From assembly GCF_009914755.1 (NCBI RefSeq), contig NC_060947.1: a stretch of 64,000 bases of DNA, one strand, 5' to 3'. The position numbers and the translations under genes were made by a program. Below are positions 45,152-45,557 of this stretch, one piece after another; position 1 is the stretch's first letter; every line of letters begins with the position of its first letter. Source of the DNA: the human T2T-CHM13v2.0 reference genome, Homo sapiens. The notes under the pieces are model-generated. The model saw only the letters and a program-made list of their open reading frames with translations, was not told where the DNA came from and did no database searches.

Positions 45152-45557
45152 CAATTTCCTTCATAAATTCTGTTTACAACACTGCTATTTCTTTTTTTTT
45201 TCCATTTTGTTTTTTTGAGACAGAGTTTCGCTCTTGTCGCCCAGGCTGGAGTGCAATGGCGCAATCTCAGCTCACTGCAACATCTGCCTCCCAGGTTCAA
45301 ACAATTCTCCTGCCTCAGCCTCCCTAGTAGCTGGGATTACAGGTGCCCGCCACCACGTCCCGCTAATTTTTTTTGTATTTTTAGTAGAGACAGGGTTTCG
45401 CCATGTTGGCCAGGCTGGTCTTGAACTCCTGACCTCAGGTGATCTGCCCACTGAGATTACAGGCGTGAGCCACCACGCCCGGCCCCATTTCTTTTCTAAG
45501 TTCACTTTGTTCACCAGTAAGACAAACTGTATGATTCTCCTCCAGGTCCTCCACGTG
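45152..45557 (-). pseudogene. SYCP3/XLR-like penultimate exon, interrupted by Alu and carrying a TAA stop
   Basis: ttgttgtag|CAC GTG GAG GAC...GAA ATG G[Alu]CA GTG TTG TAA (45176-45174) ACA GAA TTT ATG AAG GAA ATT G|gtaaaa. Confidence 0.88.
45198..45484 (-). mobile_element. AluS (Sq/Sp-like) inserted into a coding exon of the SYCP3/XLR-like gene
   Basis: Alu consensus with ~20-nt left-arm deletion; TSD AAAAGAAAT(G/A)G on both sides. Confidence 0.92.

What the first reader, a model, noticed from the sequence alone, without database searches (positions are those of the whole stretch)
45152..45557. Datable gene death: AluS inserted inside a coding exon, plus a CAA->TAA stop
Seen: the exon reads [24 protein letters not shown], then an Alu flanked by a duplicated AAAAGAAAT(G/A)G, then resumes in the same frame as AVL*TEFMKEI. 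The donor is shifted by one base. Inference: since the Alu is AluS-type, the gene was dead by, or killed during, early anthropoid evolution. Strepsirrhines and non-primates may retain an intact ORF.
Basis: partly seen in the sequence, partly recalled or inferred. Interest (0 to 1): 0.7.

Follow-up and report, generated by a model that had tools for sequence, protein, structure and literature searches.

The report
Dead SYCP3-like cluster that spawned FAM9
This is a dead, unannotated copy of the meiosis gene SYCP3 on the human X, broken by an Alu and five other lesions; a neighbouring dead copy carries a different Alu at the same spot, likely by a second independent insertion, and a third dead copy likely gave rise to the living FAM9 genes.

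Summary
The exon is the exon-8 homologue of an intron-keeping SYCP3-like pseudogene (copy A, minus strand, 53492 to 45001), at the position where cat and pig have SYCP3L genes and mouse has Xlr3/4/5. The Alu is AluSq-type with a target-site duplication, and the CAA->TAA stop is there. The 'shifted donor' is really a ~21-nt deletion of the true donor. The Alu only gives a latest date of death: A also has a stop at codon 18 and no exon 6. A rough lesion clock (about 0.06-0.08 substitutions/site, wide interval) fits death in early primates or simians. Two more dead copies (B, C) lie 1-36 kb left of the window. C carries an AluSc-type element one base from A's site in flanks only 66-70% alike, most likely a parallel insertion. 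B's introns are 88-89% identical to FAM9B/FAM9C on Xp22, so the family likely survived by moving. An Xq28 Xlr3-like pseudogene related to FAM9B is already in print; the three-copy map, twin Alus and intron-level FAM9 origin were not found in nine searches. Lemur, tarsier and monkey status is untested.

The parts
53493..54351 (-). GC-rich 5' region (promoter and first non-coding exon inferred), homologous to the FAM9B 5' region; CpG observed/expected only 0.14-0.43
   Evidence: alignment to FAM9B; CpG counts
53402..53492 (-). exon 2 homologue: ATG, 91 nt, GT donor; in-frame TAA at 53441-53439 (codon 18)
   Evidence: (45% to human FAM9B protein, E 1e-6)
52834..52903 (-). exon 3 homologue, 70 nt, open; acceptor chosen by frame among nearby AGs
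52631..52665 (-). exon 4 homologue, 35 nt as in SYCP3, open, weak donor
   Evidence: (E 4.5e-7)
50980..51097 (-). exon 5 homologue, 118 nt as in SYCP3, open, AG/GT intact
   Evidence: (E 5e-13)
49220..50277 (-). interval where exon 6 should lie; no exon 6 detectable
   Evidence: local score 42.5 against shuffle mean 39, max 55 of 30; controls 159 and 84; no other genomic copy of the interval
48072..48173 (-). exon 7 homologue, 102 nt; +2 and +1 insertions that together keep the frame
   Evidence: (E 6e-23)
46399..46703 (.). young interspersed repeat in intron 7 (L1 3' end by recall), 95-97% to many copies
45485..45557 (-). exon 8 homologue, 5' part (73 nt), ending in the left target-site copy 45485-45495
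45196..45484 (-). AluSq-type element with A-rich tail, sense to the gene, 18-nt internal deletion; read-through meets a stop at 45437
45185..45195 (-). right target-site copy
45153..45184 (-). exon 8 homologue, 3' part; TAA at 45176-45174; ancestral donor removed by a ~21-nt deletion just after 45153
45001..45045 (-). exon 9 homologue, open, 9-nt in-frame deletion, ends in the same TGA TGA as SYCP3
   Evidence: (E 3.5e-8)
51755..64000 (.). inner part of a palindrome arm (51755-83022) whose inverted partner at -48747 and beyond repeats exons 2-4 of copy A, stop included
   Evidence: (99.77% over 31,268 columns)

Best explanation
The exon belongs to copy A, one of three broken, intron-keeping SYCP3-like genes around MAGEA1, which are likely the human remains of the eutherian X-linked SYCP3L / Xlr3-4-5 cluster and likely died in early primates or simians, the Alu being one of six lesions and probably not the first. 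Mechanism: (shown) an AluSq-type element sits in exon 8 between 11-13-nt target-site copies at a TT/AGAA site; (established knowledge) this is the mark of L1-endonuclease target-primed insertion; (shown) read-through stops 16 codons into the Alu; (shown) the paralogous site in copy C holds an AluSc-type element whose 5' junction is one base further on; (inferred) these are two independent insertions into one favourable target kept in both copies; (shown) copy B is sister to FAM9B/FAM9C in an intron tree; (inferred) a B-type gene was duplicated to Xp22 before the New World/Old World split and survives as FAM9, while A, B and C decayed. In life A would have made a SYCP3-like coiled-coil protein of germ cells, working like mouse XLR3 on the unsynapsed XY axis (inferred from family and synteny only). 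Today the locus likely does nothing.
For: Exon order, lengths and phases match SYCP3. Synteny: between MAGEA1 and MUM1L1L/PNMA6F/ZNF275 cat has 1 and pig 2 SYCP3L, mouse Xlr4/3/5 triads, human none; FAM9A/B/C have no cat, pig or mouse counterpart at Xp22 (PMC8327908 Table S4). Lesions in A. Lesion clock: 2 stops + 2 frameshifting indels in 555 nt gives 0.058-0.078 substitutions/site (95% range 0.016-0.20); P(<=4) is 0.0002-0.006 at 0.24, the per-lineage distance since A split from B/C. Twin Alus: differ at 8 of 10 Sq/Sc positions spread over both monomers; flanks 66% and 70% alike for A-C against 75% and 82% for B-C, and B has no Alu. FAM9: intron identity B-FAM9B 88.0%, B-FAM9C 88.8%, B-C 81.8%, A-others 64-65% over 3,794 gap-free columns; tree (A,(C,(B,(FAM9B,FAM9C)))) 100/100; B, FAM9B, FAM9C and the chr8 processed copy share the exon-8 TAA that ends FAM9B; FAM9 proteins came from apes, Old World and New World monkeys (20 of 45 candidates, all simian).
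Against: No non-human DNA of this locus was seen, so timing rests on one genome. The clock uses assumed rates (indel/substitution 0.07-0.11, kappa 2-4), leaves out the exon-6 loss and the Alu, and with stops alone does not reject death at 0.24 (P 0.08-0.10); exon 3's acceptor was picked by frame, which can hide a frameshift. C's Alu has A's Alu as its nearest of 37 neighbours (0.095 against 0.097) and they share two derived bases (positions 142, 244); A and C also share the same TAA. dN/dS shows no purifying selection on A. One-to-one orthology with Xlr3, 4 or 5 was not tested.
Confidence: 0.78

Rival explanations
1. The Alu was the killing lesion: A was working until the AluSq element inserted, and the other lesions came afterwards.
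For: Lesion clock (0.06-0.08) overlaps the Alu's own age class (non-CpG distance 0.045, CpG decay 0.37). Exons 3, 4, 5, 7 and 9 are still open. Exon 5 joined to the second AG of exon 7 stays in frame without exon 6, and the two exon-7 insertions sum to 3, so these may have been tolerated in life.
Against: It is one of up to six lesions with no order known; the stop at codon 18 lies far upstream; the paralogous site in C took an Alu too, which suggests a permissive target rather than a special event.
Confidence: 0.2
2. The two Alus are one insertion: it was copied between A and C by gene conversion at the inner ends of the palindrome, and one copy was later overwritten by an Alu of another subfamily.
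For: A and C are inverted and abut 99.8%-identical arms; same TAA codon; C's Alu is nearest to A's and shares two derived bases; whole-element Alu conversion exists (14 of 52 reconstructed AluS/Y cases, PMC8230782).
Against: Needs two rare steps. No island of raised identity flanks the Alu (66%/70%), C's exon 8 is closer to B (79%) than to A (70%), the 5' junctions differ by one base, 22% of 325 random AluS/Y-age pairs are closer than this pair and 114 of 325 share two or more derived bases, and FAM9B has a C->T at the same codon too.
Confidence: 0.12
3. Copy A has been dead since early eutherian times and is not the counterpart of any living cat, pig or mouse gene.
For: dN/dS about 1 against the other X copies; a search with A's exon 5 among 71-2000-residue proteins found 0 of 1 candidates significant; cat has only one annotated SYCP3L here.
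Against: Only 2 premature stops and 2 small frameshifting indels in 555 nt, where 0.24 substitutions/site predicts about 13-17; 5 of 5 acceptor AGs of exons 3-5, 7, 8 and the exon-9 acceptor survive.
Confidence: 0.08

Closest known systems
SYCP3 (chr12; Cor1 / XLR-SYCP3-FAM9 domain PF04803)
   Same: Exon order, lengths of exons 4, 5, 8, phases and final stop; 62-76% exon identity.
   Different: X-linked; no exon 6; two premature stops; Alu; no complete ORF.
Mouse Xlr3/Xlr4/Xlr5 and cat/pig SYCP3L
   Same: Same interval next to MUM1L1L/PWWP4, PNMA6F and ZNF275; multi-copy, inverted arrangement. [quoted passage not shown]
   Different: All three human copies are broken. No sequence of these genes was obtained, so copy-to-copy orthology is open.
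The Xq28 Xlr3-like pseudogene in print (review PMC4091450 citing Davies 2005 and Raefski & O'Neill 2005)
   Same: Same region, same family, noted as closest to FAM9B.
   Different: One pseudogene is mentioned; three are present. The copy closest to FAM9B is B, not the Alu-bearing A. The 2005 papers were not seen and may say more.
FAM9A/B/C (Xp22)
   Same: [quoted passage not shown]
   Different: Protein-coding in simians, stops in exon 8 or earlier, no Alu at this site; derived from the B branch, only 64% intron identity to A.
Precise parallel SINE insertions (target shift <=1 nt)
   Same: Same orientation, same target, one-base shift, different subfamilies. Reported frequency 0.01-0.04% of Alus in primates (PMC10531181 quoting Doronina 2019).
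   Different: Those cases are orthologous sites in different species; this one is between paralogues 75 kb apart in one genome.

Membership tests
XLR/SYCP3/FAM9 (Cor1) family | sequence homology to SYCP3 across the coiled-coil exons | tested here: met
XLR/SYCP3/FAM9 (Cor1) family | Pfam PF04803 match above threshold | tested here: inconclusive
   0 of 36 frames for copy A; copy B exon 7 scored 30.7 bits against a cut-off of 32.1; single short exons are weak queries
Unprocessed (duplicated) pseudogene | parental intron positions kept | tested here: met
Unprocessed (duplicated) pseudogene | ORF-disabling lesions | tested here: met
Unprocessed (duplicated) pseudogene | no protein made / no functional transcript | not testable with these tools
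   no expression data; the RefSeq table given with the finding has no row here
Xlr3/4/5-SYCP3L cluster | syntenic position between MAGEA1/PNMA and ZNF275, beside PWWP4 | tested here: met
   against the annotation given with the finding
Xlr3/4/5-SYCP3L cluster | phylogenetic grouping with Xlr3/4/5 or cat/pig SYCP3L sequences | not tested
   three protein searches listed none of these proteins
AluS (Sq-type) | diagnostic positions against published consensus | tested here: met
   9 of 10 Sq-versus-Sc positions; one Sp-like base at 244; finer label Sq2 is recalled, not tested
L1-mediated retroposition | target-site duplication and A-rich tail | tested here: met
Precise parallel insertion | same site within 1 nt, different elements, diverged flanks, empty site in a closer relative | tested here: met
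Precise parallel insertion | gene conversion excluded by outgroup species | not testable with these tools
   no primate genomes other than human
Unitary pseudogene (function lost with no living paralogue) | no functional copy elsewhere in the genome | tested here: inconclusive
   no close copy of A exists, but the sister branch survives as FAM9

The most novel reading that the evidence does not exclude
Simians relocated the eutherian Xlr3/4/5-type meiotic gene cluster: one copy jumped from Xq28 to Xp22, was shortened and became FAM9A/B/C, and all three Xq28 copies died in the same stretch of stem-simian evolution, two of them hit independently by different Alus at the same base. FAM9 would then be the true descendant of the cluster that holds mouse Xlr3, and the place to look for an XLR3-like role in human sex-chromosome silencing.
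Probability: 0.5. Interest if true: 0.6.

Novelty: new member of a known kind. Interest (0 to 1): 0.4.

Why it matters
An Alu in a dead exon is ordinary. What adds value is the setting. Mouse Xlr3 is reported to be needed for meiotic sex chromosome inactivation and Xlr3b is imprinted, and the human counterpart has been uncertain. The intron tree gives direct sequence evidence that FAM9 came out of this very cluster, with a rough date, and shows three lost copies missing from the RefSeq table. The paired Alus are a clean example that a shared Alu between paralogues need not mean shared descent, which matters for dating duplications by repeats.

Tried and rejected
Pfam scan of 36 frames: no Cor1 hit. 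Rfam over 43-56 kb: 0 matches. Protein search with A's exon 5: 0 of 1 candidates; the HMMER library gave 3 hits, two of them repetitive proteins taken as chance and one 30-residue fragment 82% identical whose only human match is A's exon 5: likely another mammal's orthologous exon, uninformative on function. The SYCP3 exon-5 search listed 120 of 426 hits, named SYCP3, Cor1-domain or hypothetical proteins plus one 'SYCP3-like' entry 95% identical to the query, none an evident X-linked SYCP3L. dN/dS could not tell live from dead. The Alu tree left A, C and most AluS copies unresolved. Rejected: a first guess for exon 2 near 53050 (it aligns to FAM9B intron); repeat-mediated deletion of B's 5' half between L1-like pieces (they are in opposite orientation); insertion before the A/C duplication (flanks 65% alike, B empty). 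Exon coordinates were off by 1-2 nt; one search is the corrected run. The Alu comparison rests on only 38 copies from the loci in hand.

Full report
1. Observation. The minus strand reads [24 protein letters not shown] from 45557, an Alu begins at 45484, and after its tail the sequence reads AVL*TEFMKEI. The duplicated target is at 45485-45495 and 45185-45195; the TAA is at 45176-45174. The peptide's only two PDB matches at E<=10 are human and mouse SYCP3.

2. The gene. SYCP3 exons taken from chr12 of the same genome find exons 4, 5, 7, 8 and 9 in the window in order on the minus strand; human FAM9B finds exon 2 and, by DNA alignment, exon 3 and the GC-rich 5' region. Corrected coordinates are: exons 2-5 form one frame of 104 codons with a single stop at codon 18; exons 7-9 form one of 84 codons with a premature stop at codon 62. 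Exon 6 is absent. Exon 7 has +2 and +1 insertions. Lesions of this copy (A): codon-18 stop, exon-6 loss, exon-7 double insertion, Alu, exon-8 stop, donor deletion. A Pfam scan of 36 frames gave no Cor1 hit, so family membership rests on direct alignment.

3. The neighbourhood. In 80 kb of flank on each side there are two more intron-keeping copies: B (minus, exons 5-9 at -1542 to about -6480) and C (plus, exons 5-9 at about -34450 to -29030). Neither has its own exons 2-4 in the 224 kb searched. B has a 4-nt insertion in exon 5, a stop in exon 6 and a lost exon-9 acceptor; C has a lost exon-5 acceptor and 1-nt deletions in exons 5 and 7. A's exons 2-4 lie in a palindrome arm, 99.77% identical over 31,268 columns to an inverted partner that ends at -48747, upstream of C. 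Brashear et al. 2021 (PMC8327908; I read passages, part 1 of 2 of one section, and rows of supplementary Tables S4 and S6) list cat 1 and pig 2 SYCP3L and the mouse Xlr4/3/5 triads in this interval, with no human gene.

4. The Alu and its twin. Against consensus sequences in the supplement of PMC1266357 (passages), A's Alu has the Sq state at 9 of 10 positions separating Sq from Sc. Copy C has an Alu in the same orientation at the same target, with the Sc state at 9 of 10; the two differ at 8 of 10. C's 5' junction is one base further on; the extra base is T on the left and C on the right, as CpG decay at the junction would give (inference). B, FAM9B, FAM9C and two processed copies have an empty site. 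Flanks are 66% and 70% alike for A-C, 75% and 82% for B-C. Among 38 Alus from the loci in hand, 26 were kept as AluS/Y-age (non-CpG distance under 0.09; 12 dropped); 22% of their 325 pairs are closer than A-C. Against independence: A's Alu is the nearest of 37 to C's, narrowly, and they share two derived bases; both genes have TAA at the same codon, though FAM9B has a C->T there too. Chance estimate: C's gene body holds three Alu pieces and A's one, and each has about 125 endonuclease-like sites by a recalled pattern, so a coincidence is about 2% if insertions use only such sites and about 0.1% if uniform. Published rate between species is 0.01-0.04% (PMC10531181 passages; the source paper not seen). 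Conversion with full replacement is documented but rare (PMC8230782, parts 1-2 of 4). I put parallel insertion at about 0.85.

5. Dating. AluSp, AluSc and an AluY progenitor were active at the platyrrhine-catarrhine split, 35-40 million years ago, and AluS activity largely ended before catarrhines diversified; an age for Sq near 40-45 million years is recalled. That is a latest date only. Independent clock: 2 stops and 2 frameshifting indels in 555 nt give 0.058-0.078 substitutions/site (95% 0.016-0.20) under assumed rates; with 2 or 5 lesions 0.03-0.10. The per-lineage distance since A split from B/C is about 0.24 (JC 0.47-0.49), which the count rejects (P 0.0002-0.006) but stops alone do not (P 0.08-0.10). 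dN/dS among the human X copies is about 1 and does not help. Exon 5 joined to exon 7's second AG stays in frame, to the first AG it makes a stop, so exon-6 loss may have been tolerated; this is speculation.

6. FAM9. Copy B matches four Xp22 loci at 84-86% over kilobases, at chrX 8.36, 8.59, 10.80 and 12.62 Mb. The 8.59 Mb locus encodes human FAM9B (89-100% over its exons to the stored protein) and the 12.62 Mb locus matches macaque FAM9C (83-95%); FAM9A for 8.36 Mb is inferred from gene order; the 10.80 Mb copy is unnamed here. On 3,794 gap-free intron columns B is 88-89% identical to FAM9B/C, 82% to C; A is 64-65% to all; tree (A,(C,(B,(FAM9B,FAM9C)))), support 100/100, rooted on A by choice; the exon tree rooted on SYCP3 has the same order. 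Cat, pig and mouse have no FAM9 at Xp22, so the direction is Xq28 to Xp22. FAM9 proteins were found in apes, Old World and New World monkeys, 20 of 45 candidates, none outside simians (weak as absence). The B-FAM9 distance per lineage (0.06) is of the same size as the lesion clock and the Alu's age class.

7. What is known. A review (PMC4091450, passages) states that the Xq28 region homologous to mouse Xlr3b/4b/4c holds an Xlr3-like pseudogene closest to FAM9B, citing two 2005 papers that I did not see. Table S6 of PMC8327908 calls FAM9 a lineage-specific duplication and probable family member of Xlr and SYCP3L. The XLR3 preprint (10.1101/2021.03.30.437712; abstract, one passage, Discussion) lists FAM9 as the primate members and reports MSCI defects on knock-down. 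PMC2680341 and PMC13375895 (passages) added nothing on the human locus. Nine full-text searches (listings only, apart from the papers named) showed no account of three copies, the twin Alus or an intron-level origin of FAM9; subscription journals, GENCODE and unseen supplements may hold one.

8. Verdict. Observation confirmed; interpretation partly supported. An unannotated member of a known class of pseudogene in a region already known to hold one, with two extras worth a follow-up: parallel Alu insertion between paralogues and the birth of FAM9 from this cluster. Interest 0.4.

Noticed in passing
window 37-8830 against 55819-64281: The region upstream of copy B is 79-87% identical to the region upstream of copy A and shares an old (J-like by distance) Alu at the same position, so this homology is primate-age although the gene bodies are only 64% alike.
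   Followed up: partly
L002 (chr1:19.12 Mb): Processed copy with exons 5-9 spliced, exon 8 most like copy A (83%), no Alu, CAA intact, ancestral splice point, but exons 7 and 9 closer to B/C: a fossil of an expressed, possibly mosaic or now-lost SYCP3L.
   Followed up: partly
L005 (chr8:43.39 Mb): Processed copy of B type (85-88% to B exons) that still holds 5' exons B has lost, showing that B or a close sister was once transcribed and spliced.
   Followed up: partly
G000 C23:10,804,209-10,811,300; C23:7.53 and 8.33 Mb; C24:6.77 Mb: A fourth full FAM9-like copy and partial 3' copies on X and Y, 83-89% to copy B.
   Followed up: no
window 51755-64000 and -48747 leftwards: Palindrome arms carrying PWWP4 and its pseudogene, each with a tandem repeat array near 73.6-77.9 kb; the inner 1.25 kb is only 96% identical.
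   Followed up: no
window 21100-22923: Internally repeated GC-rich sequence at the MAGEA1 5' end (68-75% self-matches).
   Followed up: no
copy C, -29551 to -29539: The left target-site copy in C has the same TAA that ends FAM9B and is shared by the B branch, while the right copy has the ancestral GAA; if C once ended there, its Alu fell just past the stop.
   Followed up: partly
window 50982-51065 against P0003: A 30-residue unnamed fragment is 82% identical to A's exon 5 and matches nothing else in the human genome.
   Followed up: partly
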